A model generated the notes under the pieces. The model was not told the origin of the DNA. It made no database searches and saw nothing but the letters and a program-made list of their open reading frames with translations. 64,000 nucleotides of DNA from Giardia intestinalis (Eukaryota), in assembly GCA_000002435.2 (NCBI GenBank), contig CM018790.1. One strand, 5' to 3'. Both the position numbers and the translations under genes were made by a program. The stretch's first letter is position 1. The number at the start of each line of letters is the position of its first letter. Positions 5,883 to 62,465 of this stretch are shown here, in pieces.

Positions 5883-6003
5883 CAATTTTGGTATCTCACT
5901 CTCATTTTTTACAAAACATGTCACCAGTGAGTCAATCTTGATTGTGTTTAACGAATAAAGTACTGTGAATAAATTCTTTTAGCAGGTGGTGGACGACTGA
6001 AAG

Positions 6004-6468: not shown

Positions 6469-7077
6469 TACTGCTCGTTAGATATTGGGTCTGGCTTGTA
6501 AGGGAGCAGGTGCCACCAATATTCCAAGTACGAGTATCAAATAATTAATTATAATTTTTACTCAACCAAAACACATCCAGGCTTCACAACTTAGCAATTG
6601 TGCACAGCAGCAATGCATCCCAGCTATGGATGAGAGCACTCTTCAATGTCAATACATAATTGAGAAAGCTCCTGAGAGGATGCCGGAACATAGGTCCATC
6701 ACTAGAGTGCACTAGTAAGGAAAAGGATTGTCAGCTATAGTACTCTATAGCTTTGCAAGTGTTCTTCTATGAAAGCAATAGACGAGGTAGAATAAGCAAT
6801 AAGTAGCTGGATATATCTCCTGGTAGCAATCACATTAGTACCTAGCAACTAATAATAAGTCCTTGTCTAACTTAGATAAATCTTGCTTTATGTACAGTTA
6901 TACAAACAATCACTATCTACATTAACAAGTGGCGTGTGATCACATTGACAACATGAAGACTATATAGCGGCAATAGACCATTACACGCAGTACTATTGCT
7001 TAGCTATTACGCCTACCAGTTCTTTGGATTGTCAATCCAGCCTTCAAATAGTTTCAAAATCTGTTATTTCAAAAATA

Positions 7078-25245: not shown

Positions 25246-28200
25246 ATGAACCCGTTCGACCTTACTCCTGCATCGATTCCCTTCGTCCATGCGAGTGACA
25301 AGGCGGCCATGCTTCAGAGCGTGATACCGTTAGCAGTGGCTAAGGGCGTGGCATCTAATGCAGACACTCTTTCGGCGACAGACATCGCCATTGCGGCACG
25401 TGAGCCGCTACGCAACGCAAATCCGAATCCAGATGCCAGTTACATACTTACCCTGACACGCTACTATAAGCTTATGCGTCCAATTGCAGAGCACGCAAAT
25501 GACCACGACGTTCTGCGCGCCACCGTGGCTAACCCCAGCAAGTGGGTCTCTGAGAACGTATCTCTCGAGTGCTCCTCCATTGCCGGTGAAGCAGTTGCTG
25601 CTGCAATTAATCTAGCTGCAGCAAAGATTTTTAGTGGAATAGGAAATCACTACGACGCGACTAGGTTCTTCTCGGAGGCCGAGGCTATTCTGCAGGAGGC
25701 TGCTACGCTAGCAGAAAGCGGCCACCTATGTGGATTTTTAGGCCCTACTCATCTCCGGGCGCTGGCTTTGTTTGCCCAAGCACAGTCTCTCGAGAGCACT
25801 GCCGTGAGCAAGATCAACAAATTGGGTGCAGAGGAAATAGAGTCAACTGAACTGCAGACAGCCCTGCGTACGCTCACCGAGGCTAGTGCTCTTTACGATC
25901 GAGTTTTCAAAGACCTGGCTCCGACAGCCTCTTCTTCTACCGTTGTTGCAAGCACGTCTCTCTTTAAGGCTAAGCTTCTCCCTGCTCTTGCCAGATACGT
26001 CGTTGCGAATGCCTACTTTAATGGGAACAGGCTTTCTAATACCGCTACTGAATGCCGCAGGGCCTCTGAACTTCTTACCGTCGCACAAGCCGCGCTGGAG
26101 CTTACTCCTGACCAAGAACGCATGACTTCTGAGCTGGCCACGGCAATTATCGGCATACAGAGCAACCTACCCGTGGCCGGTGTCGATGACGAGGCACAGT
26201 TATATGATCTTCAGAGGATGACAGAGCAAGATTTCCGTGAATTCAAGCAAGCATACGGCGCACCAACAGATGTTCTACCTCCGTGGAGAAACGATTCTTC
26301 TCAAGACACTGCGGCTCTTAACGAATTACGCCGCATTGTGGCCAGCAAGGACGATGAAATTCAGGCACTTAACATCTCGTTACGAAACGCGCAGCTGGAG
26401 CTTCTCCAGGTATCTTCTGGAAGCGTTCTCAACACAGAAGTCACGTATCTTAAGGGTCTTTTGGAGAAGGAACATGAAACCGTGAAGTCACTTCAAGAAG
26501 CAGCAGAACTTAAGAACAAAGAGGTGGATGCATTGAACGAAGCCCTTAAGCAACAAGAGGAGATGGTCAAGTCCCTCTGTGAAAGTATCTCTCCATCTGC
26601 ATCCCGCAAGAATCTCAAGAGCCCAGCTGCGGGGGATGCGTCCACCCGCGAGGCAGACAGGCGAGAGCGCATGATAAAGAAACTTCAGATGCAGGTTATG
26701 AGTAAGGACATTGAGATTAATGAGTTGAAGTCTTCTCTTGAGCTAGCGAACAGCGGCATGTTAGCCTCTACCACCGGTGCGACGACAGACGAGGTCGACG
26801 CTCTCCGAAGGGACATTGCGGCTCTTCAGAATGCTATTGATGATAAGGACAAAGAGGTAAAGTGGCTAGAAGACGAGATTCGGCAAAAGGATGATACGAT
26901 GATAGAATTGCGGGGCCGCACGGAAAGTGAGATAGAGTCCCTCCAGGAGACAGCCGCCAGCAAAGACCAGGAAATTGCAAAGCTCGAGGCAGAATTGAAG
27001 AGTACCTTGCAAATGATCCAGGCCCTCAAGAACTCTGAGGCTGATGGCGCTGGTGCAACAAACATACTGCAGCGTGAGAAGGCACACCTAGAGGATAAGT
27101 TGCAAGAAAAGGAAAATATCGTAGCAGAATTAAACGAGGCCTTAAGAAAAAAAGATTTAACGATTGCTGAGCTGCATGAGAGCGCTGCAGCTCAGCAACG
27201 GAAGGAACAGGAGACAATCGACTTCTACGAAAACCTCAAAAGAGAGCAGAATCAAGTTATCTCTGATCTGCGAAGCTCGCTCTCGGCTAAGCAGGCCACT
27301 TTAGCCATGGCAGAGGAGACTGCAAAGACACTAGAAAGTGAAGTCCAGTCGCTAAAGAGTGAAGTGGACGCTAAGACTATGGAGATAGAAAGCCTCCTTG
27401 CTATGTCGACGAGCAAGGCCAACGATATGGACCAGACCATGGAAGAGCTCCAGTCATTGAGGACCGAACTGCTGGCCAAAGAAGGAGAAATTCAAACCCT
27501 TAGGAACCTAATCGAAGAGAAGGAAGCAATAATTACTGATTTACGGATGACAGAAAGCGAACACCAGAACAAGTATACTACTCTCCAAACCACACTTCAG
27601 CGGCTGAATGAAGACCTTCAGAGCAGAGACCGTCAGATCGTTGCACTTTTAGAAGAAGCAGAGGCAGCAGCTGAGCGTCAAAAGGCGAGTCAACATCTTC
27701 AGGAACAGCTCCAGAGGCAGATTTCTCAGCAAGATATTGTAAGCAAAAGCGTCCAAGAACAAGTCTGTATGATGAGCGATGCTGCCTGTCGGGCCCGCTA
27801 TTTAGAGGATAAATTGGCCACCAAAACATACGACGAAGAAGTTTTGCGTACTATGATACAACGTGTAGAAGATGCCGACCGAGACAAGGGGAGGACTATC
27901 GAGAGTCTGAGAACGGAGATTGAGTTTTTGCGCAGTGAACCTAAGTATCAGCCAGACGACAGATCGGGTCAAATAGAAGCACTGGAAGACAAGATCGTAG
28001 CGTTGAACACACATATTCGGTATCTTACTAACGAGCTACTTCAAAAGGAGCAAGAGCTAGTGCACTTAGCTAATGACGATAAATCAGCTGAGACAGACCG
28101 TCTGAAGAAGCTTCTTATTAGTCAGGATGATGAGCTGAATGAGCTAAAGGAGAACCTGTTCCTTCTTAGAGAAAAGGGAATAAGCGATGGAATTCTTGAC

Positions 28201-31200
28201 GGAGAACCCACGATGGTTCCTGCAAGCATGCTTGTTAGCAAGCAAGAGGAGATCGATAGATTAAAAGAAGCCTTAGAGTCTCTTAGCGCAGAGGAGCCGA
28301 TTATAGTTACCCGGCACGAAGAGCCAGAAGAGGATATCTCTAGTCTTAAGAAGCAGCTTACTGAGCTCACCGGACTGGTTGCCAGTCAAGCCGTCCAGAT
28401 TGAGGGTTTGAATGCTCAATTAGCCGATAAAACACGTGACCTTGACACTGCCTTGTATGATGTCGCAGTCTTAAGACGTGCATTGCGCGTCATTGAGGAT
28501 GACTACAGAGATTCTGAGCGCAGTCTTGACCAACTCGAACAACAAGCTGTCAACATGAAGGATGCTTATGAGTTATCTCTTGCAGCGCAGGTAAGTCCTA
28601 TTGGCGTTCTTGAAAACGAGCTCCGAGCACTCAGTACGCATAATCAGCAATTGATAGACGTCATTGATGAAAAGGACGGTGAGATTTCACGGCTTCATGC
28701 TTCTGTTATCGATGCTATTTCTGCTAGCCAAGTTGTAGTTGCTCCTCCCGATTTCTCCAATTTGCTCACCGATAAAGACGCCGAGCTCGAGCGCCTCCGC
28801 ACGCTCCTCGACCATCCCCCGGTTGAGCAGCCCGTAGACGACTCCCAGAAGTACCGGGACGCGATCGGCTTCCTCAAGGAGGAGCTTGCCTACAAGGACC
28901 ATGAGATCCGCCGCATGAGGGCTGACAGCGCGCCCTCCGAGGTCGCGCAGATCGTTGACGCCTCCCTCAAGCAGGCCCTGGCACAGAAAGAGGAAGAGGT
29001 GGCGCGCCTCAAGAGCGCCCTGGAGGATCTCGCCTCGGACCACATCGGCCAGAAGACCGGCGAGCCCGACACAGCCGCTCTCAAGGCCCTGCAGCAGGAG
29101 ATCAGCACAAAGGACGACGAGATCCAGAAGCTCACCGCTGTCATCGCTGCCATGCCGCGCACCCATGAGCCGCAGGACATCACTGACGCCGCAGAGCTGG
29201 TGCGCATCCTTGAGTCCAACCTCGAGAGGGAGAAGGATGACACGGCTGCTCTTCGCGACGCCCTGCGCAACGCAGAGGAGAAGAACAATGAGCAGCTTCG
29301 CGAAATAGATGATCTTCGTCGGGAGCTCGACGCGCTTCGCAGGGCGGCTCCCGTCGAGCCTCTTGCGGCTGCAGCCCCGGCCGACGACGACCTTCTCCGG
29401 TCGCTGCGCGCAGACAACGAGATGCTGATGGAGGATGTCCATGATAAGCGCCAAGACATCAAGGTTCTGGAGCGCAAGCTTCTTCAGGCCAAGGACGTCA
29501 TCGAGGATCTCAAGGACGCGCTCGTCCGCGTCGAGCCCGCCGAGCTGACGGCCATTGCAGACGGCGACGCGGAGGACATCGGCCGCCTCCAGGACCTCCT
29601 CGAGAACATGAAGCAGCGCGAGAAGGAGCTCAACCGCTTCTACACCGACCTGCTGAAGCAGACCCAGCCGGCACAGGCACCAGAGCCCCTCACCCAGGCA
29701 GACTTCGAGCGGATCCTCTCCGAGAAGGACGCCGAGCTCGAGCGCCTCCGCACGCTCCTCGACCATCCCCCGGTTGAGCAGCCCGTAGACGACTCCCAGA
29801 AGTACCGGGACGCGATCGGCTTCCTCAAGGAGGAGCTTGCCTACAAGGACCATGAGATCCGCCGCATGAGGGCTGACAGCGCGCCCTCCGAGGTCGCGCA
29901 GATCGTTGACGCCTCCCTCAAGCAGGCCCTGGCACAGAAAGAGGAAGAGGTGGCGCGCCTCAAGAGCGCCCTGGAGGATCTCGCCTCGGACCACATCGGC
30001 CAGAAGACCGGCGAGCCCGACACAGCCGCTCTCAAGGCCCTGCAGCAGGAGATCAGCACAAAGGACGACGAGATCCAGAAGCTCACCGCTGTCATCGCTG
30101 CCATGCCGCGCACCCATGAGCCGCAGGACATCACTGACGCCGCAGAGCTGGTGCGCATCCTTGAGTCCAACCTCGAGAGGGAGAAGGATGACACGGCTGC
30201 TCTTCGCGACGCCCTGCGCAACGCAGAGGAGAAGAACAATGAGCAGCTTCGCGAAATAGATGATCTTCGTCGGGAGCTCGACGCGCTTCGCAGGGCGGCT
30301 CCCGTCGAGCCTCTTGCGGCTGCAGCCCCGGCCGACGACGACCTTCTCCGGTCGCTGCGCGCAGACAACGAGATGCTGATGGAGGATGTCCATGATAAGC
30401 GCCAAGACATCAAGGTTCTGGAGCGCAAGCTTCTTCAGGCCAAGGACGTCATCGAGGATCTCAAGGACGCGCTCGTCCGCGTCGAGCCCGCCGAGCTGAC
30501 GGCCATTGCAGACGGCGACGCGGAGGACATCGGCCGCCTCCAGGACCTCCTCGAGAACATGAAGCAGCGCGAGAAGGAGCTCAACCGCTTCTACACCGAC
30601 CTGCTGAAGCAGACCCAGCCGGCACAGGCACCAGAGCCCCTCACCCAGGCAGACTTCGAGCGGATCCTCTCCGAGAAGGACGCCGAGCTCGAGCGCCTCC
30701 GCACGCTCCTCGACCATCCCCCGGTTGAGCAGCCCGTAGACGACTCCCAGAAGTACCGGGACGCGATCGGCTTCCTCAAGGAGGAGCTTGCCTACAAGGA
30801 CCATGAGATCCGCCGCATGAGGGCTGACAGCGCGCCCTCCGAGGTCGCGCAGATCGTTGACGCCTCCCTCAAGCAGGCCCTGGCACAGAAAGAGGAAGAG
30901 GTGGCGCGCCTCAAGAGCGCCCTGGAGGATCTCGCCTCGGACCACATCGGCCAGAAGACCGGCGAGCCCGACACAGCCGCTCTCAAGGCCCTGCAGCAGG
31001 AGATCAGCACAAAGGACGACGAGATCCAGAAGCTCACCGCTGTCATCGCTGCCATGCCGCGCACCCATGAGCCGCAGGACATCACTGACGCCGCAGAGCT
31101 GGTGCGCATCCTTGAGTCCAACCTCGAGAGGGAGAAGGATGACACGGCTGCTCTTCGCGACGCCCTGCGCAACGCAGAGGAGAAGAACAATGAGCAGCTT

Positions 31201-34200
31201 CGCGAAATAGATGATCTTCGTCGGGAGCTCGACGCGCTTCGCAGGGCGGCTCCCGTCGAGCCTCTTGCGGCTGCAGCCCCGGCCGACGACGACCTTCTCC
31301 GGTCGCTGCGCGCAGACAACGAGATGCTGATGGAGGATGTCCATGATAAGCGCCAAGACATCAAGGTTCTGGAGCGCAAGCTTCTTCAGGCCAAGGACGT
31401 CATCGAGGATCTCAAGGACGCGCTCGTCCGCGTCGAGCCCGCCGAGCTGACGGCCATTGCAGACGGCGACGCGGAGGACATCGGCCGCCTCCAGGACCTC
31501 CTCGAGAACATGAAGCAGCGCGAGAAGGAGCTCAACCGCTTCTACACCGACCTGCTGAAGCAGACCCAGCCGGCACAGGCACCAGAGCCCCTCACCCAGG
31601 CAGACTTCGAGCGGATCCTCTCCGAGAAGGACGCCGAGCTCGAGCGCCTCCGCACGCTCCTCGACCATCCCCCGGTTGAGCAGCCCGTAGACGACTCCCA
31701 GAAGTACCGGGACGCGATCGGCTTCCTCAAGGAGGAGCTTGCCTACAAGGACCATGAGATCCGCCGCATGAGGGCTGACAGCGCGCCCTCCGAGGTCGCG
31801 CAGATCGTTGACGCCTCCCTCAAGCAGGCCCTGGCACAGAAAGAGGAAGAGGTGGCGCGCCTCAAGAGCGCCCTGGAGGATCTCGCCTCGGACCACATCG
31901 GCCAGAAGACCGGCGAGCCCGACACAGCCGCTCTCAAGGCCCTGCAGCAGGAGATCAGCACAAAGGACGACGAGATCCAGAAGCTCACCGCTGTCATCGC
32001 TGCCATGCCGCGCACCCATGAGCCGCAGGACATCACTGACGCCGCAGAGCTGGTGCGCATCCTTGAGTCCAACCTCGAGAGGGAGAAGGATGACACGGCT
32101 GCTCTTCGCGACGCCCTGCGCAACGCAGAGGAGAAGAACAATGAGCAGCTTCGCGAAATAGATGATCTTCGTCGGGAGCTCGACGCGCTTCGCAGGGCGG
32201 CTCCCGTCGAGCCTCTTGCGGCTGCAGCCCCGGCCGACGACGACCTTCTCCGGTCGCTGCGCGCAGACAACGAGATGCTGATGGAGGATGTCCATGATAA
32301 GCGCCAAGACATCAAGGTTCTGGAGCGCAAGCTTCTTCAGGCCAAGGACGTCATCGAGGATCTCAAGGACGCGCTCGTCCGCGTCGAGCCCGCCGAGCTG
32401 ACGGCCATTGCAGACGGCGACGCGGAGGACATCGGCCGCCTCCAGGACCTCCTCGAGAACATGAAGCAGCGCGAGAAGGAGCTCAACCGCTTCTACACCG
32501 ACCTGCTGAAGCAGACCCAGCCGGCACAGGCACCAGAGCCCCTCACCCAGGCAGACTTCGAGCGGATCCTCTCCGAGAAGGACGCCGAGCTCGAGCGCCT
32601 CCGCACGCTCCTCGACCATCCCCCGGTTGAGCAGCCCGTAGACGACTCCCAGAAGTACCGGGACGCGATCGGCTTCCTCAAGGAGGAGCTTGCCTACAAG
32701 GACCATGAGATCCGCCGCATGAGGGCTGACAGCGCGCCCTCCGAGGTCGCGCAGATCGTTGACGCCTCCCTCAAGCAGGCCCTGGCACAGAAAGAGGAAG
32801 AGGTGGCGCGCCTCAAGAGCGCCCTGGAGGATCTCGCCTCGGACCACATCGGCCAGAAGACCGGCGAGCCCGACACAGCCGCTCTCAAGGCCCTGCAGCA
32901 GGAGATCAGCACAAAGGACGACGAGATCCAGAAGCTCACCGCTGTCATCGCTGCCATGCCGCGCACCCATGAGCCGCAGGACATCACTGACGCCGCAGAG
33001 CTGGTGCGCATCCTTGAGTCCAACCTCGAGAGGGAGAAGGATGACACGGCTGCTCTTCGCGACGCCCTGCGCAACGCAGAGGAGAAGAACAATGAGCAGC
33101 TTCGCGAAATAGATGATCTTCGTCGGGAGCTCGACGCGCTTCGCAGGGCGGCTCCCGTCGAGCCTCTTGCGGCTGCAGCCCCGGCCGACGACGACCTTCT
33201 CCGGTCGCTGCGCGCAGACAACGAGATGCTGATGGAGGATGTCCATGATAAGCGCCAAGACATCAAGGTTCTGGAGCGCAAGCTTCTTCAGGCCAAGGAC
33301 GTCATCGAGGATCTCAAGGACGCGCTCGTCCGCGTCGAGCCCGCCGAGCTGACGGCCATTGCAGACGGCGACGCGGAGGACATCGGCCGCCTCCAGGACC
33401 TCCTCGAGAACATGAAGCAGCGCGAGAAGGAGCTCAACCGCTTCTACACCGACCTGCTGAAGCAGACCCAGCCGGCACAGGCACCAGAGCCCCTCACCCA
33501 GGCAGACTTCGAGCGGATCCTCTCCGAGAAGGACGCCGAGCTCGAGCGCCTCCGCATCCTGACTTCAGATAATGCCACCTTTTTCAGGAAGAAGCTGGCA
33601 GCCAAGGACGCGGAGATAAGAAGGCTTATGTCGGCTGCATCTCAGCCAGATGAGGCGTCACATGGAACAGAGTACGATGTTGCCGTATTGCAGAGTGCTT
33701 TGACTGTGGCTGACGACATCATCAATGATAAGACGCGAGAAACTGAAGAACTCCAGAAGCTCCTTGATGACTTACAAGAAAAGCTTCGAGATGTGGATGA
33801 GAATAAGCTTTATGAAACCATCGACATGCTTAGGAACGATGTTGACCGTTTAGAAAGATGTCTCAACGAGCGTACTAAGGAACTGAACTCATTCAAATCT
33901 GCGATGCCTCATGATAATGTTCTTGCCAATGCAGTGCAGAGAGAGAAGGAGATCGAAAGGTTCTACAGAAACCTCATTGATAGCAAAGACGTTATGATTA
34001 ACCAGCTTAAAGCTCTTCTGTCTGCCGACACTGACGATCTCCTAAGGGCTCTTCGAATGGACAATCAGACTCTGGCTGAGGACGTGCGAGACAAGGCCAA
34101 CAGTCTGCAAGATACTACAAGAAAACTCCGAGATGCCATGAACACCATTGACAGGCTTCAGTCTGAACTAGCTCATGCACGTACTGATGAACTGGACGAC

Positions 34201-34926
34201 TCTCGTCCTTCAGAACAGGACTCACAATCTGATGGCTTACAAGAGCTACAAAGAATTATCCAGGCCAAGGATGAGGTCATTTCGGACCTGCGGCAACAGC
34301 TAGATACAGCAACTGATACAACCGTGGACACTGCTGAGCGTATACGCGTGCTTGAGAGCAGTCTAGCAGAGGGCTCTGCTCGCGAAAGAGAAGCACCGGC
34401 GATCATATCAGATGACGTTACGTCTCTTACACAGAAGATAGCGCTTCTTCAGGACGAGATTGACGAAAAGCAGAACACAATCGAGGCTCTTGTCGGAGCA
34501 ATCAAGGACTTTAATGAGGCTAATGCTTCTCTAAGACAGTCCAAGATAGAGATGGAGGATCAGGTCAGATATATGCGGCAGGCTCTTGAAAACACCCAGG
34601 GTGCCATGAATCACATGCTTACGTCTGCAATTGGCCAGAACAGCGAAGTGGCAGCCGTGCTGAGCCCTCAGCTAAGCGCAATCGACGCAACGACCAACAT
34701 GAGCGCTCTCGATATGCAGCAGAAGATTAAGTATTTGACCGACGAATTGAACAAATCTCGCCAGGAGGTTGACGACATGAAGAAGGCCTTTCAGGAGTCA
34801 GGCTCTGTTGGGGGGAGCAGCTATGAGATTGCAACGCTACGGAAGGAAATCAATCGTCTCAACAAGGAGTTGGATAGATACCGTAGCGGATCCGTTGTTA
34901 CACCGTCGTTCAGTAGAATCCAGTGA
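25246..34926 (+). CDS. Giant coiled-coil protein (3226 aa) with an internal array of five identical 317-aa repeats
   Basis: Single ATG ORF. Nearly the whole length shows heptad-like E/K/L/R/Q-rich sequence. Residues encoded by 28777-33556 repeat exactly. The flanking regions contain diverged versions of the same motifs (for example LRALRMDNQTLAEDVRDKANSLQD versus LRSLRADNEMLMEDVHDKRQDIKV). Confidence 0.85.
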   Translation: MNPFDLTPASIPFVHASDKAAMLQSVIPLAVAKGVASNADTLSATDIAIAAREPLRNANPNPDASYILTLTRYYKLMRPIAEHANDHDVLRATVANPSKWVSENVSLECSSIAGEAVAAAINLAAAKIFSGIGNHYDATRFFSEAEAILQEAATLAESGHLCGFLGPTHLRALALFAQAQSLESTAVSKINKLGAEEIESTELQTALRTLTEASALYDRVFKDLAPTASSSTVVASTSLFKAKLLPALARYVVANAYFNGNRLSNTATECRRASELLTVAQAALELTPDQERMTSELATAIIGIQSNLPVAGVDDEAQLYDLQRMTEQDFREFKQAYGAPTDVLPPWRNDSSQDTAALNELRRIVASKDDEIQALNISLRNAQLELLQVSSGSVLNTEVTYLKGLLEKEHETVKSLQEAAELKNKEVDALNEALKQQEEMVKSLCESISPSASRKNLKSPAAGDASTREADRRERMIKKLQMQVMSKDIEINELKSSLELANSGMLASTTGATTDEVDALRRDIAALQNAIDDKDKEVKWLEDEIRQKDDTMIELRGRTESEIESLQETAASKDQEIAKLEAELKSTLQMIQALKNSEADGAGATNILQREKAHLEDKLQEKENIVAELNEALRKKDLTIAELHESAAAQQRKEQETIDFYENLKREQNQVISDLRSSLSAKQATLAMAEETAKTLESEVQSLKSEVDAKTMEIESLLAMSTSKANDMDQTMEELQSLRTELLAKEGEIQTLRNLIEEKEAIITDLRMTESEHQNKYTTLQTTLQRLNEDLQSRDRQIVALLEEAEAAAERQKASQHLQEQLQRQISQQDIVSKSVQEQVCMMSDAACRARYLEDKLATKTYDEEVLRTMIQRVEDADRDKGRTIESLRTEIEFLRSEPKYQPDDRSGQIEALEDKIVALNTHIRYLTNELLQKEQELVHLANDDKSAETDRLKKLLISQDDELNELKENLFLLREKGISDGILDGEPTMVPASMLVSKQEEIDRLKEALESLSAEEPIIVTRHEEPEEDISSLKKQLTELTGLVASQAVQIEGLNAQLADKTRDLDTALYDVAVLRRALRVIEDDYRDSERSLDQLEQQAVNMKDAYELSLAAQVSPIGVLENELRALSTHNQQLIDVIDEKDGEISRLHASVIDAISASQVVVAPPDFSNLLTDKDAELERLRTLLDHPPVEQPVDDSQKYRDAIGFLKEELAYKDHEIRRMRADSAPSEVAQIVDASLKQALAQKEEEVARLKSALEDLASDHIGQKTGEPDTAALKALQQEISTKDDEIQKLTAVIAAMPRTHEPQDITDAAELVRILESNLEREKDDTAALRDALRNAEEKNNEQLREIDDLRRELDALRRAAPVEPLAAAAPADDDLLRSLRADNEMLMEDVHDKRQDIKVLERKLLQAKDVIEDLKDALVRVEPAELTAIADGDAEDIGRLQDLLENMKQREKELNRFYTDLLKQTQPAQAPEPLTQADFERILSEKDAELERLRTLLDHPPVEQPVDDSQKYRDAIGFLKEELAYKDHEIRRMRADSAPSEVAQIVDASLKQALAQKEEEVARLKSALEDLASDHIGQKTGEPDTAALKALQQEISTKDDEIQKLTAVIAAMPRTHEPQDITDAAELVRILESNLEREKDDTAALRDALRNAEEKNNEQLREIDDLRRELDALRRAAPVEPLAAAAPADDDLLRSLRADNEMLMEDVHDKRQDIKVLERKLLQAKDVIEDLKDALVRVEPAELTAIADGDAEDIGRLQDLLENMKQREKELNRFYTDLLKQTQPAQAPEPLTQADFERILSEKDAELERLRTLLDHPPVEQPVDDSQKYRDAIGFLKEELAYKDHEIRRMRADSAPSEVAQIVDASLKQALAQKEEEVARLKSALEDLASDHIGQKTGEPDTAALKALQQEISTKDDEIQKLTAVIAAMPRTHEPQDITDAAELVRILESNLEREKDDTAALRDALRNAEEKNNEQLREIDDLRRELDALRRAAPVEPLAAAAPADDDLLRSLRADNEMLMEDVHDKRQDIKVLERKLLQAKDVIEDLKDALVRVEPAELTAIADGDAEDIGRLQDLLENMKQREKELNRFYTDLLKQTQPAQAPEPLTQADFERILSEKDAELERLRTLLDHPPVEQPVDDSQKYRDAIGFLKEELAYKDHEIRRMRADSAPSEVAQIVDASLKQALAQKEEEVARLKSALEDLASDHIGQKTGEPDTAALKALQQEISTKDDEIQKLTAVIAAMPRTHEPQDITDAAELVRILESNLEREKDDTAALRDALRNAEEKNNEQLREIDDLRRELDALRRAAPVEPLAAAAPADDDLLRSLRADNEMLMEDVHDKRQDIKVLERKLLQAKDVIEDLKDALVRVEPAELTAIADGDAEDIGRLQDLLENMKQREKELNRFYTDLLKQTQPAQAPEPLTQADFERILSEKDAELERLRTLLDHPPVEQPVDDSQKYRDAIGFLKEELAYKDHEIRRMRADSAPSEVAQIVDASLKQALAQKEEEVARLKSALEDLASDHIGQKTGEPDTAALKALQQEISTKDDEIQKLTAVIAAMPRTHEPQDITDAAELVRILESNLEREKDDTAALRDALRNAEEKNNEQLREIDDLRRELDALRRAAPVEPLAAAAPADDDLLRSLRADNEMLMEDVHDKRQDIKVLERKLLQAKDVIEDLKDALVRVEPAELTAIADGDAEDIGRLQDLLENMKQREKELNRFYTDLLKQTQPAQAPEPLTQADFERILSEKDAELERLRILTSDNATFFRKKLAAKDAEIRRLMSAASQPDEASHGTEYDVAVLQSALTVADDIINDKTRETEELQKLLDDLQEKLRDVDENKLYETIDMLRNDVDRLERCLNERTKELNSFKSAMPHDNVLANAVQREKEIERFYRNLIDSKDVMINQLKALLSADTDDLLRALRMDNQTLAEDVRDKANSLQDTTRKLRDAMNTIDRLQSELAHARTDELDDSRPSEQDSQSDGLQELQRIIQAKDEVISDLRQQLDTATDTTVDTAERIRVLESSLAEGSAREREAPAIISDDVTSLTQKIALLQDEIDEKQNTIEALVGAIKDFNEANASLRQSKIEMEDQVRYMRQALENTQGAMNHMLTSAIGQNSEVAAVLSPQLSAIDATTNMSALDMQQKIKYLTDELNKSRQEVDDMKKAFQESGSVGGSSYEIATLRKEINRLNKELDRYRSGSVVTPSFSRIQ
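28777..33556 (+). repeat. Tandem direct repeat, 951-bp unit in about 5.03 copies, apparently 100% identical, in frame (3 x 317 codons) inside the coiled-coil gene
   Basis: The landmark 'gacgccgagctcgagcgcctccgc' recurs at 28777, 29728, 30679, 31630, 32581 and 33532, a spacing of exactly 951. The antisense ORFs 28890-29477, 29841-30428, 30792-31379, 31743-32330 and 32694-33281 have identical 195-aa translations, confirming nucleotide identity. Copy 1 diverges upstream of 28777, and copy 6 diverges after about 25 bp. Confidence 0.9.
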
Positions 34927-34985: not shown

Positions 34986-35747
34986 TCAGTTTACGCTTTC
35001 TATGGTGGGGCGCGTGTTAGGGGCTCTGCTCATTGTGTATGCAACCCTCTCTGCTTGTTCGTCAATGATTGCTGGCCCGCGAGGAAGAACCTCGTTGGAG
35101 CTATTCTTCACCGTCCCGGCCCCAGTAATGATAGCCATTACACGCGCCTCGATGTCCTGCATGCTCAAATCTGTGCAGTCAATGACACGGATACAGTACT
35201 CGAATACCTTGAAGTACGCTGGTCGGTTTATTTTGTAGACATCGTAGCGCTTCTTCAGTTGATCACGCTCCAGCTCACTTGCAGATCGGGAAAGCACTGT
35301 GTCCAGCGGAAGCTGAAGGTCTATTACCACCGTGGGCAGACAATCTGGGCTGATACGCAACGAAAAGGCCTCCAGCTCAGAGGAGGGAAAGTCATCTAGG
35401 ACCCAAGAATCGTTTGAGCACTGCTGGAGCTGGGTTCGAACGGACTCGATAACCTCTGTGCTTCCTAGAGTCTGGTTATTCCGTTCAGCGCAGATCAAGC
35501 GGCCCCCAAGCCTCTTCGACAAAAGGCTGCACATCGTGCTCTTTCCAGAGCATGGCGGGCCCAGTATAATGACTCTGTGCGTTGTCTTGCAGGTTGTCTT
35601 CGCAGGATCAAAGTAATTCTTCAAAAATCCGCATGGGTTGTCAGGCTTATGTATGGCGAGGGCCTCCATCGCTTGCTGGAGCTTGATGTAGATCTGCCGC
35701 TCCTCTAGATATTCGACGATAGCGTCATCTGTAATTTTGGCAGCCAT
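34986..35747 (-). CDS. Adenylate/nucleoside-monophosphate kinase-like P-loop protein with an N-terminal Dpy-30/RIIa-like docking motif
   Basis: 'VIILGPPCSGKSTMCSLL' is an AK-type P-loop and 'WVLDDFPSSELEA' resembles the NMP-binding 'GFLIDGFPR..QA'. The N-terminal 'AIVEYLEERQIYIKLQQAMEALAIHKPDNPCGFLKNYF' fits the Dpy-30 motif found in flagellar adenylate kinases (AK7-like). Confidence 0.5.
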   Translation of the reverse strand: MAAKITDDAIVEYLEERQIYIKLQQAMEALAIHKPDNPCGFLKNYFDPAKTTCKTTHRVIILGPPCSGKSTMCSLLSKRLGGRLICAERNNQTLGSTEVIESVRTQLQQCSNDSWVLDDFPSSELEAFSLRISPDCLPTVVIDLQLPLDTVLSRSASELERDQLKKRYDVYKINRPAYFKVFEYCIRVIDCTDLSMQDIEARVMAIITGAGTVKNSSNEVLPRGPAIIDEQAERVAYTMSRAPNTRPTIESVN

Positions 35748-36157: not shown

Positions 36158-39100
36158 TCAACGATTCGATAGATGGACATAAATGCCGTTTAGTGTTACC
36201 ATCTCATCTACCTCTTTGCTATAAGCAGACATCTTGACATGCATGACCTCTATGCCAGCTACCCGTGACTCTCTAAGTTGGTCCACATAGAATGGAACTA
36301 TTGCAGACGAGGAGAGGTGCGCCTCGTTGTCAGCCGAGTACACATAAATATTCTCCAGTTGGTCGCTTTCCACATTCAAATCGATGAGGGTCCGCAACGA
36401 ACAGCCCTGAAGAACACAGCTTCCAGCCTTAAGCGTTATTACTGGATGAGCACGCTTATTGCAAGCTTGAGATGAGGCGACCAACTTGATACTATTGAGC
36501 TCTTGGCCCATAGCTATGCCTTCATATCTACGAATAGCCTCAATGAATGCGGCGGGTCGTGGCATGTCTGACAGAGCGAGTTCGATCTGCGTCATGGTAC
36601 TTGACTCATTGACACTCTGTCTGCAAGACTCATATGCGCTGGCTATGCTCGAGGATGCGCTTGTCAAAAAGGTACTCAAGTACTCGAAGGGATCGCCACT
36701 GCGAAGAGTAGCTAGCTCAGGAGAGTCGTGTGGTGCTGTTGGGCAGGGCACAGCAGTTATTCCCACGCACCATCGTTCTGGTAGAATTCTACTCAGGATA
36801 AGAGAGGCAATGGCCTTGATCCGTGTGCTGGCAAGGAGATAATTGCTATGCGCCGCAGCTGCTTCCTTGAAGTCGCTTTCCAGGACCTTTCCGATTGACA
36901 TTATCACATTCCCTTGTAGATGAAGCTCATCAATAATCGGAATAATCCGCGCAATAGCTGGATCTGTTTGTTGAGCTTCGTTCAGAAAGGCTCCCATCTC
37001 CTTAAGTTTAGTGGCAAACACAGTCAGCTTGGGCTTAACGTCTTTCTCATAGATAGATGACAGTTGTAAAATTGTGTCATATATGCTGGCGATCGCGTTC
37101 CCGTCTGATGCACTTTCCTGAGTACCACTCTGTATACTTATTCGTGCCAACAGCGACCTAGTTGTTATGCTATTCTTTAAGCTCTGAGTTAGGAGGGCAT
37201 TGGTGGGCAATCCAAGATAGTTTGGAACAGGTTTCTCGGGATAACACTGCTGCACGTAGAGCGCGATTCCGTCAATTAACTGTGCTGCATCGAAGCAGCT
37301 GCTACCTGCCAAGAGACTTTTGTTACAAAGAACATGTGCAGGCGGAAGTAAGTATTGGATAACGGGAATGCTGTTAATAGCAGAAACTATATCGCGCGCT
37401 CCATACGATTGAGCATTGCCTTCAACTGAAACAGTGGCTGGAATAGCTTTTTCTCCCTTATCAATAAGCTCAAATATCGCCGTTATCGCCTTGCTATTAT
37501 AGGATATCTTAGTAAACTCCAACAACAAAGCATTGTCTGAGGAGTCCTTCGTGGCTACACCATATATTGCATCGAGTAGCAAGCCACTCAGCCGCTTTGA
37601 GAATCCGAGTAAGTAAACATTTTCGTCCTGGCTTGCTGGAAGCCCGCGAACCATACAGTCCTGAATAATGGAAATGATAGCCGTAAGGTCGTTCTGAGAC
37701 CAGCCCGGGTCTAGCGCAACACCGCGGGGGGCATAGAGGCGGCGGGCGTCCAGGATGATATGGAGTGCAGTGGAGATGTAGAGCAGGGCGTAAAGCTTTC
37801 TAATAAAGCTCTCTGTTTTGTTCTGTGAAGGGACGGTTGTTGGCCATCTCCGAACAGCATCCAGGAAGGCTTCTTTGGGAGAGCTATCAACTACCAGACA
37901 TACGCGCCACCCGACCCGGCCTAAACTCTGAGGAATGTATGGCTTTGGCTCGAGAAGAAGAACAATCTTCACGTGAGAGAGCAACTCTTCGTTATATTTC
38001 AGTTTGAAGCTAACCGAGCTCTCCATGAGCCAGCTGGGGAGAACAGAGAGCCAGTTGGCGCAGAGGTGGGCACCTTTTATAACAATCGTATGCATAACCG
38101 CAGAACTCATGGTGTCAATAGATTGCTCGCTTTTCCATGATTCGTATCTTCCCCCGAGATCTTCTAGTACGGTTTCAATAGCTTTGTTGGCCGCTTTTTC
38201 TTGGCCGGGATTTATGGTTATGGGGGTAGAGTTGGGGATGGTACTTGTAGGGTCCTGGCCTTGCAGCGTGTACAAAATGACAGGCTGGAGAAAACCGGCA
38301 GAGTGCCGTATAGCAGCAGCAATACTGTCCAGAAATTGCAGCTCCTTAGCATAATCATTCTTGAGGAGGGTCCTACTCACTGCGAGCTGTAAAGCAGTGG
38401 AAATCAGGTCCTTTCGACACGCAGAGACAAGAGCTGCCATTTCAACGTAAGTTAAGCGTCCTGCTGCATCTGGGAAAAGTTGGTTTATGTCGTTAAGGTT
38501 GTTGCACACCTTCACCTTGGCAGGAAAGTTGCTCCAGACAGAGCTGTTTGTAATGGAAATAGTAGACAGACGTGCCGAAGAAAAGCATGACAGGACCAAT
38601 CGAAACTCTTGTGTAAGGTTGGCGGGAACCCAGGTGGGAACAGATATAGAGGCATTAGAGTCAGCACGCCCTGTAAAGTACTTGAAGAGACTATCCGTGA
38701 AAATATCGGGGCAATAATTGCGCAATAAAAGAGCAGAAGCGGCGACCACATCGCTTGAGAACACGGATGTCTGGAGCCTGAGTAGAGTGTCTGAACGGAA
38801 CTGTTGTTGAGTTGCAAGAACTAGATCTGCAGTGATCTCCGACGGATTAGCAGTCGAGGGCTTATTACTTTGTAAGGCTTTAATCAGCAGCGGCATCACT
38901 GAACACTGATCTCCGATATATAAGCTATTTGCCGGTTGTAATGAAGAAAATGTTGAGACACAAGTGTCCATGTCTCTTGCCAATGGAAGAATGCGCTCTT
39001 TTACAGCATCAAGCTCCTTTTGAATGGTTTCAACCCCTTCTTGTGCTTTTTGTATTTCGAGTGTTTGCTGCTCTGCTTGCTTGAGCACGTTCATAAGAGT

Positions 39101-42100
39101 CACATTATCAATTATTGACAATGACTCTGAAGTTGTGGCAGAGTCGGTTGCAGCACTCAGGGCCGTGAGAAGGTTCTGCTCTACTTTGAAGAGTTGCTCG
39201 TTGAACGCCAGCTGAGAGTCCCTCAACTCCTCTATTTTCTTTAAGCTTTCTGGAGACCACTCAGCTAGAATACGATCAGTGTACAGATTAGCCTGAGACT
39301 TTCGTGTGGGTGCATAGGATAGTATCAGAACATGCTGAGAAAGATCTGACGGCACAAACACATCCAAAGACGAAACCAGAATCATGCGGAACGATGGAGA
39401 CACTTCACTGAACTTGAAGGATTGGACTGGCATGATGGTTGTTGCTGTCGAGAGAAGGTAAGACGTATTCACGTACCCGGTTCCTGCAGGTGTGTCTGCT
39501 GCTGCACTCTCAGAGGCTCTATATCCACCTCCAGAATATCTTATGTATGGGAATAGAACAGAGGGAATAGACCCACTGTCGCAGTTTAGGACGACAATTG
39601 TTTTGCCAAACCTGGCTGCAATACTAACAAGATTCGCTAGATTCTCCGAGGCAGCACTTACAAAAGTGGTTCCCTCCACAGAGACGTCTTGGTTCTTCGT
39701 TTGGTCGAAATAGTTACGTAAAAATGTGAGAACTCCTGTGGCTTCGGTGACATGAGAAAGCACTATGGTTGTGATTAGATTATAATTCCTCATGTCACGC
39801 ATGTCACGAGCGTCATCGTCAGCGGCACCTCGAGGGGCACTGTTTCGCGGAAGCTTGCTACTACTGTATAGCATGTCAAAAATGGCCGTATTCTCCAACG
39901 AACTAGTTGATGCAACAAGCCCATAACTAACATATCTATTCACGGTAACAGAATCATAAAGTAACGCGCCAAAGGCAGCTCTGACGGTCAGTCCTTTATC
40001 ATCATCTTTTGCCGATACAGGGCTCCCGAAAAAGCTCTCACGCATGTCATCTGTGCTGGCACCAGCTACTACGAACAGAATGGCTGCATTAACGGCACAC
40101 TTGTCGATAATATCTAGCTGCTGACTTGCTTGCTTGTACCCCTCTTCCCAGCGCAGCTTCTCTGCCCGGAGCCCGTGGAGCATCTCTTGGCCCTTCCGCT
40201 GCTTGGCTTGAATCTGCTGTAGCTCCTGCTTATACTTGACAAGCTGCTCTGTTTTCGCATTGAAGTCATCGCGGAGGCCTGCTATCTGAGCCTCTATGGC
40301 AGCGACCTCATCATTAATCGTTTGAATCTCTTTACGCATACTATCGAGGCTTCTGTTGGCGCTTTCCACGGCCTTCATCAGAGGCTCCATCTTAGTGCAC
40401 ACCTCGGCGTATTTGATATTGGCCTGAATCCACTTGGCAAGCGGTGCTGCTGCCCTGGACACGCGGCGGATGCGCTCCTGCTCAAAGCAGTCGGCGTTGT
40501 TCCTCACAACCTTGTTCACGGCATGTATGGATGCTTTGCTGGCCGTCTTCATGTCAAAGTTCGCAATTGTGCGGAGAACGCCAGACTGTGAAAGAAACGC
40601 CTTCATGCCCTTCCACGAGAGATCCTGGTGACCAAGCAGCACCAGGACTGCCTCCAGGACTACAGATACTGCAGGAGGCGGAGATTGGAAGGACTTGATC
40701 TCAGTAAGGGCGTCTGACGGGATCGCCTGGACGGCCTTTGTTGCCTCTTGAAGGACGGGCATAACAGTGCTTAGCTCGGCATCTGCTTGCTCCTTGTCCT
40801 TCATGATTCCCTGCTCTCTCTCGCTCAGTTCCTTCTGCAGAGCGTGAGCGGCCAGCTTCCTGTCGTTTGCTTCTGACATACGGCTTGAGATGTTTTCTAG
40901 CGCCTGGTTTGCCTCTTTCTGGGAAAACTCCACCTGTTTTGTGCGTTCCTGCGCCTGGGCAGCCAGAGCATCGACCTCGCTCTGCGCCTTCTGTAGCTGC
41001 TTCAGCCCCTTGGACAGGCGCTCACGCTTCCTATTTAGCATGAACGTCCACCTAGACTTGAGGAGATGGTAGATGACATAGATTTTGGTGTAGTATGATA
41101 TCTGGACGGTATTGTGTGGCTTGTAGACAGACAGGTACTTACTTACGTATCCCGATGCAATCTTCAGTATCTGCTCGATCGTGTTGAGCGGCTTGAGGTT
41201 CCTACCTTCATTCGAAGCCATAGAGGCGCCAGAAATGATCGAAACAGTTTTTGTAGGCAGCGTATGAGCAATACTTCTTATGGGTGCCTTCAGAATATCG
41301 TCGGTAGTGCTTAACTGAATAGAGGAGGAGTCGAGGTAGAGCAGTTCAAAACTGACCAACTGTATGTTGCGACGCAGGGCGGGAACGAGGGAGAAGATGC
41401 CGTCGGTGCTCCTGCGCTCTGGGTTCAGCAAGATGACAGGCTGAACGGCTCGCACAAACAGGTTCAGAAAGAGCGTAGCCAACTCTGACTCAGACATAGA
41501 GTCGCCGTTCGGCACGCTTGACACCTCGGTAAACGTAGCAACCAAGCTCCTAAGATCTGCAGCAGAAAGTCGATTTCGGAAGTAGAGGATGTCACGGCTC
41601 GACAGCGCAGAAAGCAGGGCGTACCATTCTGGGTCTGCTTCCAAGGTGTTGCAGTCCATGAAGTAAGCAATGTGATGGTGGCCATGGGCAACCCTGTCGG
41701 CCAGGAAGCGCAGTACAAGAGGAGTAGCGTGGTCAGTGCCTGCAAACATGACCGTGCACCCTATACTTAGCGCCCCTGCAAGGGCAGTCTCCATTGAGAA
41801 ATTGTGTGGCTGAGATAAGATAATAACACCTGCCGAAGACCTAAGGAAAATCTCCACAGCAGAGAGAAGCTTCAAGTATTCGTGGATGACGGTATCAATG
41901 AGTGGGGGACTCCACTGCATCATGTTCAGATAGGCATAATAGAGGCGAAGGCCGTTGTAGGTGTCTCCAAGAGAGGATACAAGCTCTTTAAGCAGGCCGA
42001 TCCGCATCTTATTTGTGACTAGCTCTAGGGAGAGGTCGGAAAAATAGGCGTCGGGTATGCCTTCATCAGACTGCAATGCGCGCTGGAGCGTCTGCGCTGT

Positions 42101-50479: not shown

Positions 50480-51304
50480 GGTATTTTTTAGGGAATTTTG
50501 CCTATGCCTCTTTCGGCTGGCTCTGTGGTAAGATCGCTCAGCCTAGTGGCAAGCGGGGAGCCACAAGGTAAAGAAAGGTAGGTGCGGGATGCTCTGGTAG
50601 CCCTAATGTTGAGGACGGAAGCGTTGCAGGGCTTGCTTGCAAGAAAGATCGAGTAGCAGCTCTGCTCTAGTGGGACACATGTTATGGCATGCTAAAGGCT
50701 GAATTCAATAAACCGATCATCGTGTGTACTGATGGTGGTTTGTATGTAAGTATATGCAAACTGCGGTTCACTATAGAAGTCAGCGCGTGGAAGCATCTAG
50801 AACGCGATCCGATGTTTCAATACGGTTCGCTCCAGACTGAATCAATGTCCCCCTTAATCACTGAACGAATTCCATACCGCAGGCGTGCCGTTGCCTCCCA
50901 GTTTCTACTGGGTCTTATGCTGTTCACCTTCGGAGTAAACTCGGAAATGCCATGATCTAGGCAGCTGACTGTCGAAATACCTGAATGAAAGCCCTTGTGT
51001 TCTTCGAGCGAGACCGACGCTGCAACACAATGAGATGCTTAGTGCGTGTTGTAAGGCTCCACTCTGACAGTAGGAGCTGCTGTGATAAGTACAGACCCTC
51101 GGGCAGCTGTCAGGCCTCTAGGTAACAGCGAGCGACCAAATGTTGGCGGATGGACATCCGCTGCTGCCTTGTCGACTCCTCGTCGGTATAGGGGAGATGG
51201 ACCGATCGGGTGACCCATAGGAGCGGCCAGGTCGCAACGGCGAGTGTACCAATCGTGTGCTTCTCAATCGGTTAAATAATCTCTTTGTTTTGCTATCCAG
51301 GGTT

Positions 51305-62269: not shown

Positions 62270-62465
62270 ATGTGCACTCTTAGACCGAGCACACACCCGC
62301 AGAACACCCGAGGAACGCAGATAGCTCCTCCCTTCCACCACTGTGGTCTTTATATTGATACACGACCAACCCTCGTCTCCGGACATCACCAAAAATTGAG
62401 CGGGAATTTACCAGTAAGATCTCTGGACAGCGCCCGCAGGCAGGCCCCAGCGGCACACCACACAC
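62270..62465 (+). repeat. 3'-terminal segment of the retroelement; partner of the inverted copy at 59380-59600
   Basis: As above. Confidence 0.6.

What the first reader, a model, noticed from the sequence alone, without database searches (positions are those of the whole stretch)
28777..33556. Five perfectly identical 951-bp in-frame tandem repeats inside a 9.7-kb coiled-coil gene
A 317-aa unit is repeated about 5 times with no visible nucleotide differences. Older, diverged copies of the same motif flank the array on both sides (25.2-28.7 kb and 33.6-34.9 kb). Perfect identity over 4.7 kb implies very recent expansion, ongoing concerted evolution or gene conversion, or an assembly artefact where the true copy number is collapsed or mis-estimated. 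Repeat-number variation would directly scale the length of a rod-like cytoskeletal protein. In diplomonads such proteins are typically axoneme, median-body or disc associated. The organisation is unusual and a good candidate for strain-to-strain length polymorphism.
Basis: seen in the sequence. Interest (0 to 1): 0.7.

Follow-up and report, generated by a model that had tools for sequence, protein, structure and literature searches.

The report
Identical tandem repeats in Giardia coiled-coil gene
A giant Giardia coiled-coil protein gene carries five letter-perfect 951-base repeats that are real, were collapsed to two in the older reference genome, and look like an old array kept uniform by ongoing recombination, which is a familiar kind of gene evolution.

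Summary
Window 28777-33556 matches itself exactly at offset 951 (5.03 in-frame copies, no mismatches) inside ORF 25246-34926 (3226 aa). That protein is exactly XP_001705883.2/KAE8302545.1, "Coiled-coil protein", of Giardia intestinalis WB in the PacBio reference. Version .1, from the 2007 Sanger assembly, is identical except that it has three fewer units, so the older assembly most likely collapsed the array. Short-read assemblies of other assemblages also collapse it (P15) or break inside it (DH, GS_B).

The array does not look like a one-off recent expansion. Units are identical within a genome, but the WB and P15 units differ at 85 of 951 nt. Third-codon-position GC jumps from about 0.35-0.5 to 0.85-0.95 exactly at the array edges in assemblages A, E and B. 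The G. muris orthologue has no DNA repeat and no GC3 step. I read this as long-term concerted evolution, probably with GC-biased gene conversion.

Clearly diverged copies exist only in the roughly 300 aa next to each edge. The first ~350 aa form an unrelated helical domain found only in Giardia. Localisation and between-isolate copy-number variation remain untested. In kind this is an ordinary coding tandem repeat, with a modestly interesting compositional footprint.

The parts
25246..34926 (+). Complete gene for the 3226-aa 'Coiled-coil protein' (XP_001705883.2 / KAE8302545.1, Giardia intestinalis WB C6), 362.6 kDa
   Evidence: ORF list; translation; exact-sequence look-up; molecular weight
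25246..26295 (+). N-terminal all-helical domain (aa 1-350). It is not coiled coil and not related to the repeat unit. It is conserved in G. muris (42% identity) and found only in Giardia.
   Evidence: Alignment; exhaustive HMMER search; shuffle test z = 0.4; AF2 model with pLDDT 54; weak Bro1-like fold hits; no Pfam or PDB sequence hit
27958..28776 (+). Diverged unit-like copy directly upstream of the array (aa 905-1177). It ends ...DFSNLLTDK, which is homologous to the unit end ...DFERILSEK. GC3 is about 0.35-0.5.
   Evidence: z = 9.1; GC3
28777..29727 (+). Unit 1 (951 bp, 317 aa, 35.9 kDa; GC 0.64, GC3 0.83)
29728..30678 (+). Unit 2, identical to unit 1
30679..31629 (+). Unit 3, identical to unit 1
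31630..32580 (+). Unit 4, identical to unit 1
32581..33531 (+). Unit 5, identical to unit 1
33532..33556 (+). First 25 nt of a sixth unit (DAELERLR). Exact identity stops here, and GC3 falls to about 0.4 within roughly 20 codons.
33557..34506 (+). Diverged unit copy directly downstream (aa 2771-3087; about 30% identity to the unit, sharing for example DDLLRALRMDNQTLAEDVRDK), GC3 about 0.5
   Evidence: z = 10.3
34507..34926 (+). C-terminal coiled-coil tail and stop codon
28687..33258 (-). Antisense 1523-aa open frame, codon-aligned with the sense frame. It is a by-product of sense codon usage, not a gene.
   Evidence: The unit contains no TTA, CTA or TCA sense codons, against 39 in the N flank, so no stops arise in the aligned antisense frame. 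Its product is 23% Leu and low in complexity.

Best explanation
The array is a real in-frame tandem repeat in a single-copy Giardia gene. The gene encodes a very large, Giardia-specific protein made of a ~350-aa helical N-terminal domain followed by about 2900 aa of segmented coiled coil.

The coiled-coil part is built from an old ~300-aa module, which G. muris also carries as diverged copies. In the Giardia intestinalis lineage one stretch of that modular region became a tandem DNA array. The array is kept uniform by concerted evolution, meaning unequal exchange or slippage plus gene conversion between 951-bp units. New variants are therefore either lost or spread to every unit, and copy number can go up or down.

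Repeated heteroduplex repair in the array has probably been GC-biased. That would have driven third codon positions to about 85% G+C strictly inside the homogenised segment. The edge copies escape homogenisation and decay.

Shown here: the array; 5 units in the long-read WB assembly against 2 in the old one; identity within a genome against divergence between lineages; the GC3 island in three assemblages; and its absence in G. muris. Inferred: the recombination mechanism, the GC bias of repair, and the consequence for the protein. Each unit would add 35.9 kDa and up to about 40 nm of helix if fully extended. The protein's cellular role is unknown.
For: 1. Array and copy number. There is an exact offset-951 match across 28777-33556. 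The protein equals XP_001705883.2, and version .1 becomes identical once three units are removed. The PacBio data are 200x with read N50 12.7 kb, polished with Quiver (PMC7000408).

2. Concerted evolution.
- The two P15 units differ from each other by 1 nt at the edge, but from the WB unit at 85/951 nt (53 synonymous and 23 non-synonymous codons).
- Fourfold-site divergence is 0.21 in the unit against 0.26 in the N flank, so the units have diverged between lineages about as much as single-copy DNA.
- DH (assemblage AII) and P15 both carry Ala at unit residue 20, while all five WB units carry Val. A derived change has therefore been fixed across the whole WB array.

3. An old array.
- The left edge is shared by WB, DH and P15.
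- The right edge is shared by WB, P15 and GS_B.
- The DH and GS_B contigs end or start inside a unit.

4. GC3 island.
- GC3 is 0.83 in the WB unit against about 0.5 in the flanks. The step takes no more than 20 codons at both edges, and GC at codon positions 1+2 hardly changes.
- In the last 100 codons of the unit, GC3 is 0.89, 0.82 and 0.88 in WB, P15 and GS_B. In the C flank it is 0.51, 0.52 and 0.48.
- WB-GS_B fourfold divergence is 10/45 in the unit part against 88/143 in the flank (Fisher p = 5e-6).
- The G. muris orthologue, from a long-read genome, has no DNA self-repeat and a flat GC3 of 0.44-0.71.

5. Protein. The AF2 model of the unit is about 83% helix in 8-9 segments split at Pro-rich linkers. 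Fold hits are generic coiled coils only.
Against: - Copy number and intra-array identity in P15 come from a short-read assembly that may itself be a collapsed consensus. Only WB gives independent evidence that units are truly identical.
- No raw reads were available. Heterogeneity among the four genome copies, or rare variant units smoothed out by consensus polishing, cannot be excluded.
- GC-biased conversion is not demonstrated. Polarised WB/P15 changes in the 100 codons with an outgroup are mostly S>W (11 against 3 W>S). That is expected when GC3 is near saturation, but it gives no positive support.
- G/C-ending codons may also be favoured by translational selection in Giardia.
- Non-repeated genes in the window reach GC3 0.69-0.73, so high GC3 is not exclusive to repeats.
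- The GS_B comparison rests on only 100 codons.
Confidence: 0.72

Rival explanations
1. Assembly artefact in the present sequence: the true WB array has a different number of units, or units that are not identical, and the assembler or polisher produced five perfect copies.
For: The same accession changed from 2 to 5 units between assemblies, so assemblers do mishandle this locus. Consensus polishing can homogenise repeats. Giardia is tetraploid, so the consensus may hide alleles with different copy numbers.
Against: The array is 4.8 kb. The reads had N50 12.7 kb, 10% were longer than 20 kb, and coverage was 200x. The authors report no misassemblies from split-read checks or optical maps (PMC7000408). 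Spanning reads anchor every unit, so real differences between units should survive Quiver. The Illumina correction changed only 50 SNPs genome-wide.
Confidence: 0.08
2. A very recent expansion from one or two units in the WB lineage, with separate recent duplications in other lineages and no long-term homogenisation. The units would be identical simply because they are young.
For: There are zero differences among the five units. A WB-specific substitution (Val at unit residue 20) is present in all units, which a burst from one unit after the AI/AII split would also produce.
Against: The same unit-to-unit junction and the same array edges occur in WB, P15 and GS_B. DH and GS_B contigs break inside the unit, as expected of multi-copy arrays. 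A GC3 island co-extensive with the repeated segment exists in all three assemblages and is absent in G. muris. A recently duplicated ordinary gene segment would be expected to have flank-like GC3 of about 0.5.
Confidence: 0.15
3. The GC3 island comes from selection (translational or mRNA-level) or from a local mutational bias on this segment, not from biased gene conversion. Repetition and composition would then be independent, or GC-rich DNA would itself promote duplication.
For: Third positions in the unit are 45% C and 37% G, which is compatible with a preference for G/C-ending codons. Non-repeated genes in the window also reach GC3 0.69-0.73. Synonymous divergence is reduced in the unit, as selection would also predict.
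Against: Expression level is the same for all parts of one mRNA, yet GC3 steps by about 0.4 within 20 codons exactly at both array edges in three lineages. The adjacent diverged copies of the same module have ordinary GC3. G. muris modules, which are not homogenised, show no such step.
Confidence: 0.25

Closest known systems
Coding tandem-repeat arrays with near-identical large units and variable copy number, such as human LPA kringle IV-2 and Giardia VSP genes with tandem repeats (vspA6/CRP170). This comparison is from my own knowledge and was not checked here.
   Same: Head-to-tail, in-frame units are kept nearly identical within a genome. Copy number sets protein size. Short-read and Sanger assemblies collapse them.
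   Different: The unit here is a 317-aa piece of a cytoplasmic-type coiled coil, not a secreted or surface domain. Copy-number polymorphism among isolates has not been shown. Between the two WB assemblies the difference is most simply an assembly collapse.
Concerted evolution with GC-biased gene conversion in tandem or multicopy genes. Examples are rDNA arrays (Escobar et al. 2011, invoked for the GC-rich Giardia rRNA genes in PMC10123126) and polyubiquitin repeats (PMC10457151, listed).
   Same: Units are identical within a genome and diverged between lineages. G+C is elevated only in the homogenised DNA. Edge copies are degenerate.
   Different: This is an intragenic array of only about 5 units in a protein-coding gene in the chromosome interior. 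The GC effect is seen at synonymous sites only, and the direction of the bias could not be demonstrated here.
Giant repetitive coiled-coil cytoskeletal or tethering proteins of parasitic protists. Examples are Giardia-specific coiled-coil proteins at peripheral vacuoles (GL50803_10167, 15591 and 17249 in PMC9928461) and Giardia head-stalk or median-body coiled-coil proteins (from my own knowledge).
   Same: The protein is large, lineage-specific and mostly heptad-type helix with a small non-coiled head. It is annotated simply as 'Coiled-coil protein'.
   Different: I could not map this protein to a GL50803 gene number or to any localisation experiment, so no functional equivalence is claimed.
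Bro1-domain proteins (ALIX, BROX, HD-PTP, yeast Bro1)
   Same: The best structural matches of the N-terminal domain model are Bro1 domains (2oew E = 0.0099, TM 0.44 over 227 columns; also 3zxp, 3rau, 1zb1). ALIX and HD-PTP also follow Bro1 with a coiled-coil region.
   Different: The model is of low confidence (pLDDT 54). No match reaches E <= 0.001, and there is no Pfam or PDB sequence match. This is a lead only.

Membership tests
Coding tandem-repeat array under concerted evolution | Head-to-tail units of constant period, in frame with the host ORF | tested here: met
   Five units at 951-bp spacing, in frame 0 of ORF 25246-34926
Coding tandem-repeat array under concerted evolution | Units more alike within a genome than orthologous units are between lineages | tested here: met
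   WB units are 100% identical. The two P15 units differ by 1 nt. WB and P15 units differ at 85/951 nt. Caveat: the P15 assembly may be a collapsed consensus.
Coding tandem-repeat array under concerted evolution | Degenerate copies at the array edges that escape homogenisation | tested here: met
   The adjacent flanks are related to the unit at z = 9.1 and z = 10.3, with about 27-30% identity
Coding tandem-repeat array under concerted evolution | Copy-number variation among individuals, isolates or alleles | not testable with these tools
   Only WB has a long-read sequence available here. P15 (2 units) and the old WB assembly (2 units) are the minimum a collapsing assembler gives. DH and GS_B contigs break in the array.
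GC-biased gene conversion tract | G+C at silent sites raised in the converted DNA relative to immediately flanking DNA | tested here: met
   GC3 is 0.83 against about 0.5, with a sharp step at both edges and unchanged GC at codon positions 1+2. The same holds in P15 and GS_B.
GC-biased gene conversion tract | Excess of W>S over S>W fixed changes on polarised branches | tested here: inconclusive
   With GS_B as outgroup, over 100 codons: 11 S>W, 3 W>S and 1 W>W. The sample is small and GC3 is already near saturation.
GC-biased gene conversion tract | The effect is absent where the homologous DNA is not homogenised | tested here: met
   The G. muris orthologue has no DNA self-repeat and a flat GC3 of 0.44-0.71. 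The diverged flanking copies in G. intestinalis have GC3 of about 0.35-0.55.
GC-biased gene conversion tract | The effect is visible at non-coding sites too, which excludes codon selection | not testable with these tools
   The array is entirely coding
SMC proteins (the DH and GS_B orthologues are named 'Chromosome segregation protein SMC' in NCBI) | N- and C-terminal ABC-type ATPase head halves and a central hinge domain | tested here: not met
   A Pfam scan of the full protein at E <= 0.1 shows no SMC_N or SMC hinge, only sub-threshold coiled-coil-type hits. The N-terminal domain has no Pfam hit. The SMC name is most likely an artefact of coiled-coil similarity.
Bro1-domain proteins | Sequence match to the Bro1 family profile | tested here: not met
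   There is no BRO1 hit in Pfam at E <= 10, and none in a PDB profile search at E <= 10
Bro1-domain proteins | Bro1 fold (boomerang-shaped TPR-like helical solenoid) | tested here: inconclusive
   Foldseek top hits are Bro1 domains, but with E = 0.01-0.3 and TM about 0.4, from a model with pLDDT 54
Giardia disc-, median-body- or axoneme-associated coiled-coil proteins | Experimentally shown localisation to those structures | not testable with these tools
   No paper in the library cites the accession numbers, and the GL50803 gene number could not be recovered

The most novel reading that the evidence does not exclude
Tandemly repeated coding DNA in Giardia may be subject to frequent intra-array recombination with GC-biased repair. 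If so, the sharp GC3 island is a quantitative footprint of recombination in an organism whose sexual or recombinational biology is still debated. The same process would generate alleles or isolates with different unit numbers, changing the length of a Giardia-specific giant coiled-coil protein in steps of up to about 40 nm. That protein might carry a cryptic Bro1-like head.
Probability: 0.3. Interest if true: 0.55.

Novelty: new member of a known kind. Interest (0 to 1): 0.35.

Why it matters
Practical consequences:
- The gene model for this protein differs by 951 aa between the two WB reference versions, and it is truncated or collapsed in the DH, GS_B and P15 assemblies.
- Proteomic, transcript-mapping, knock-down and comparative analyses of this locus, and probably of other repeat-bearing Giardia genes, should use long-read models.
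- Short-read mapping inside the array will be ambiguous.

Biological consequences:
- The locus gives a clean natural contrast within one gene. The homogenised units have GC3 of about 0.85, and their decayed sister copies have about 0.45.
- That contrast could be used to measure gene conversion and its bias in Giardia.
- If copy number varies among isolates, the array would be a simple length marker and a test of whether the length of this coiled coil matters.

The general phenomenon, concerted evolution of coding tandem repeats, is well known.

Tried and rejected
- TRF returned nothing because its period limit is 500. I replaced it with a direct offset comparison.
- A homology search with the N-terminal 360 aa found nothing even though identical proteins are in the collection. 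I treat this as a limit of the word index. The exhaustive HMMER search found only Giardia relatives plus two marginal TPR/HEAT-type hits.
- The window protein is not indexed for contig look-up.
- Literature searches for the accession numbers, for Giardia coiled-coil tandem repeats, for long-read structural variation and for concerted evolution in Giardia gave nothing on this gene.
- I tried to link the protein to the PV/PEC-associated coiled-coil proteins of PMC9928461 through sequence length in the supplements. This failed.
- The Bro1 lead from the fold search got no support from sequence profiles. The Giardia ESCRT paper PMC8394649 does not mention Bro1 or ALIX.
- A fold search with the unit model gave only generic coiled-coil matches, all with E > 0.1.
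- I considered whether the other GC-rich parts of the window (8-14 kb and 52-62 kb) were related repeats. They are not.
- I considered the 1523-aa antisense ORF as a possible gene and rejected it as a codon-usage by-product.
- I considered the SMC annotation of the orthologues and rejected it.


Full report
**1. The observation**

Comparing the window with itself at an offset of 951 bases gives one unbroken run of identities from 28777 to 32605, pairing with 29728-33556. This means five complete 951-bp units (28777-33531) and the first 25 nt of a sixth, without a single mismatch. The repeat finder independently reports five copies spaced 951 bp apart. Tandem Repeats Finder returned nothing only because its longest period is 500. 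The array lies in frame in the ORF 25246-34926 (+), which is 3226 aa, and occupies aa 1178-2770. A self-BLAST of the whole 64-kb window finds no other repeat.

**2. What the gene is**

The translated ORF is exactly KAE8302545.1 / XP_001705883.2, "Coiled-coil protein" of Giardia intestinalis WB clone C6, on a 1.54-Mb record. The earlier version of the same RefSeq accession, XP_001705883.1, is 2275 aa. It becomes identical to the window protein, residue for residue, once three units are deleted.

The current WB reference was built from 200x PacBio RS II data with read N50 12.7 kb and 10% of reads longer than 20 kb. It was assembled with HGAP3, polished with Quiver, checked with optical maps, and had only 50 SNPs corrected from Illumina data. 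The old reference was an 11x Sanger/ARACHNE assembly (PMC7000408). A 4.8-kb array is easily spanned by such reads, so five units is well supported for WB. The two-unit model is most simply a collapse, because two units is the minimum that still contains a unit-to-unit junction. I could not inspect raw reads, so allelic copy-number differences among the four genome copies remain possible.

**3. Other lineages**

- P15 (assemblage E), EFO64579.1, has 2276 aa with two units in a syntenic locus.
- In DH (assemblage AII) the contig ends 377 nt into the first unit.
- In GS_B (assemblage B) the contig begins about 300 nt before the end of the last unit.

Every short-read assembly therefore collapses or breaks at this array. 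This is the behaviour expected of a multi-copy repeat, and it makes their copy numbers uninformative. The G. muris orthologue (2335 aa, 35% identity) comes from a long-read genome. It has unit-like modules at the protein level but no DNA-level self-similarity.

**4. Concerted evolution rather than a one-off burst**

The two P15 units differ from each other by one edge nucleotide, yet they differ from the WB unit at 85 of 951 nt (53 synonymous and 23 non-synonymous codon differences). Fourfold-site divergence between WB and P15 is 30/142 = 0.21 in the unit against 122/475 = 0.26 in the N flank. Orthologous units have thus drifted apart about as much as single-copy DNA, while paralogous units within a genome stay identical.

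At unit residue 20, DH and P15 have Ala and all five WB units have Val. A change that arose after the AI/AII split now occupies the whole WB array. The left edge (...DFSNLLT[D/G]K|DAELERLR...) is shared by WB, DH and P15. The right edge (...FERIL[S/T]EK DAELERLR[T/I]L|...) is shared by WB, P15 and GS_B.

**5. A compositional island that coincides with the array**

G+C at third codon positions is 0.83 in the WB unit, against 0.50 in the N flank and 0.51 in the C flank. In 20-codon windows it goes from 0.35 to 0.85 at aa 1177/1178. At the other end it goes from 0.95 through 0.70 to 0.40 across aa 2770-2810. G+C at codon positions 1 and 2 hardly changes. P15 shows the same island, with GC3 0.70-0.82.

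Over the last 100 codons of the unit, GC3 is 0.89 in WB, 0.82 in P15 and 0.88 in GS_B. In their C flanks it is 0.51, 0.52 and 0.48. WB-GS_B divergence at fourfold sites is 10/45 in the unit part but 88/143 in the flank (Fisher p = 5e-6). The G. muris gene shows no island, with GC3 between 0.44 and 0.71 in 100-codon windows.

All parts of one mRNA share an expression level. The decayed copies of the same module next to the array have ordinary composition. The simplest reading is therefore that being part of the homogenised array is what makes this DNA GC-rich, through GC-biased repair of the heteroduplexes formed during intra-array conversion. This is the explanation commonly given for GC-rich rDNA arrays, and it has been invoked for Giardia rRNA genes (PMC10123126). 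The island is shared by three assemblages, and building it needs on the order of a hundred third-position changes. The array must therefore be old, which argues against a purely recent expansion.

This step remains an inference. The few changes I could polarise (11 S>W, 3 W>S) are uninformative at such high GC3. Selection for G/C-ending codons cannot be excluded. Non-repeated genes in the window reach GC3 0.69-0.73.

**6. The protein**

- The first ~350 aa form an all-helical domain that is not coiled coil and is not related to the unit (z = 0.4).
  - It is 42% identical in G. muris.
  - An exhaustive HMMER search of 1.8 billion representatives finds it only in Giardia.
  - It has no Pfam or PDB sequence match.
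  - Its AF2 model is poor (pLDDT 54). The best Foldseek matches are repeatedly Bro1 domains of ALIX, BROX, HD-PTP and yeast Bro1, but at E = 0.01-0.3 and TM about 0.4. I record this as a lead only.
- The rest of the protein is charged, Leu/Ala/Glu/Asp-rich helix.
- The 317-aa unit is predicted about 83% helical, in 8-9 segments of 10-57 residues interrupted at Pro-rich linkers. Its fold matches are generic coiled coils such as SMC arms, HlyD and BAR domains, none significant.
- Each unit adds 35.9 kDa and at most about 40 nm if every helix were extended in line. The linkers mean the "rod" may be jointed.
- The ~300 aa immediately before and after the array are clear old copies of the unit (z = 9.1 and 10.3). 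Farther segments score only z = 4-5, which heptad periodicity alone might give.
- The "Chromosome segregation protein SMC" name carried by the DH and GS_B fragments is not supported, because no SMC head or hinge is detected.

**7. The other strand and the surroundings**

The 1523-aa antisense frame (28687-33258) is codon-aligned with the sense frame. It is open only because the unit has no TTA, CTA or TCA codons, against 39 in the N flank. It is a by-product, not a gene.

The neighbouring genes are ordinary Giardia genes: a TAP42 homologue, a cyclin, an AMP-binding enzyme, a class-I tRNA synthetase, an adenylate-kinase-like protein with a Dpy-30 motif, and a 4773-aa dynein heavy chain. Nothing in the neighbourhood bears on the function of the coiled-coil protein.

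**8. Comparison with what is known, and verdict**

In-frame tandem repeats kept identical by unequal exchange and conversion, with decayed edge copies and assembler collapse, are a well-known kind of gene structure. The sequence itself is already in the public reference and annotated. I found no paper in the library that describes this array, its 2-to-5 correction, or a GC3 island in a Giardia coding repeat.

I therefore class it as a new member of a known kind. It is real, it is correctly observed, and it is best explained by long-term concerted evolution with probable GC-biased conversion. Function, localisation and isolate-to-isolate copy-number variation all remain untested.

Noticed in passing
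window 25246-26295: The N-terminal ~350-aa helical domain of the coiled-coil protein is found only in Giardia by sequence. A low-confidence AF2 model matches Bro1 domains best (ALIX 2oew E = 0.0099, TM 0.44). There is no support from sequence profiles.
   Followed up: partly
L002 (DH, AHGT01000111.1) 6001-9924; L003 (GS_B, AHHH01000147.1) 3-1679: The orthologue is cut at contig ends inside the repeat in both assemblies. It is named 'Chromosome segregation protein SMC' there, although no SMC head or hinge domain is detectable. This is probably a misannotation driven by coiled-coil similarity.
   Followed up: partly
window ~57900-62400 (RVT_1 match at 60532-61257, + strand): This is a GC-rich (0.62) stretch with no long ORF and with reading frames broken in all phases. 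It contains a reverse-transcriptase domain (Pfam RVT_1, E = 2.9e-16, with the YADD motif). It looks like a dead non-LTR retrotransposon copy.
   Followed up: partly
window 34986-35747 (-) and 36158-50479 (-): Immediately downstream of the coiled-coil gene lie an adenylate-kinase-like protein with a Dpy-30 motif and a 4773-aa dynein heavy chain. Both are of a type often associated with flagella. The adjacency is conserved in P15 and GS_B, and for the kinase also in G. muris. No functional link to the coiled-coil gene is implied.
   Followed up: no
window 7024-13017 (+) and 52952-57901 (+): Two non-repeated genes, an ABC transporter and a WD40-like protein, have raised GC3 (0.69 and 0.73) compared with 0.48-0.61 for most neighbours. 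Giardia therefore has gene-to-gene GC3 heterogeneity unrelated to tandem repeats.
   Followed up: no
window 28687-33258 (-): A long antisense ORF (1523 aa), plus five 195-aa ORFs in another frame, lie across the array. They are explained by the absence of TTA, CTA and TCA codons in the GC3-rich unit.
   Followed up: yes
window 51257-52945 (+) and 62418-64000 (+): The first is a kinase with ankyrin repeats (NEK-type architecture). The second is an ankyrin-repeat protein that runs off the window end. Both belong to the large Giardia NEK/ankyrin families.
   Followed up: no
tool behaviour: The word-indexed homology search with the N-terminal 360 aa returned no hit, although identical sequences (P0001, P0003, P0004) are in the collection. 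A negative result from that tool with short queries should not be trusted.
   Followed up: partly
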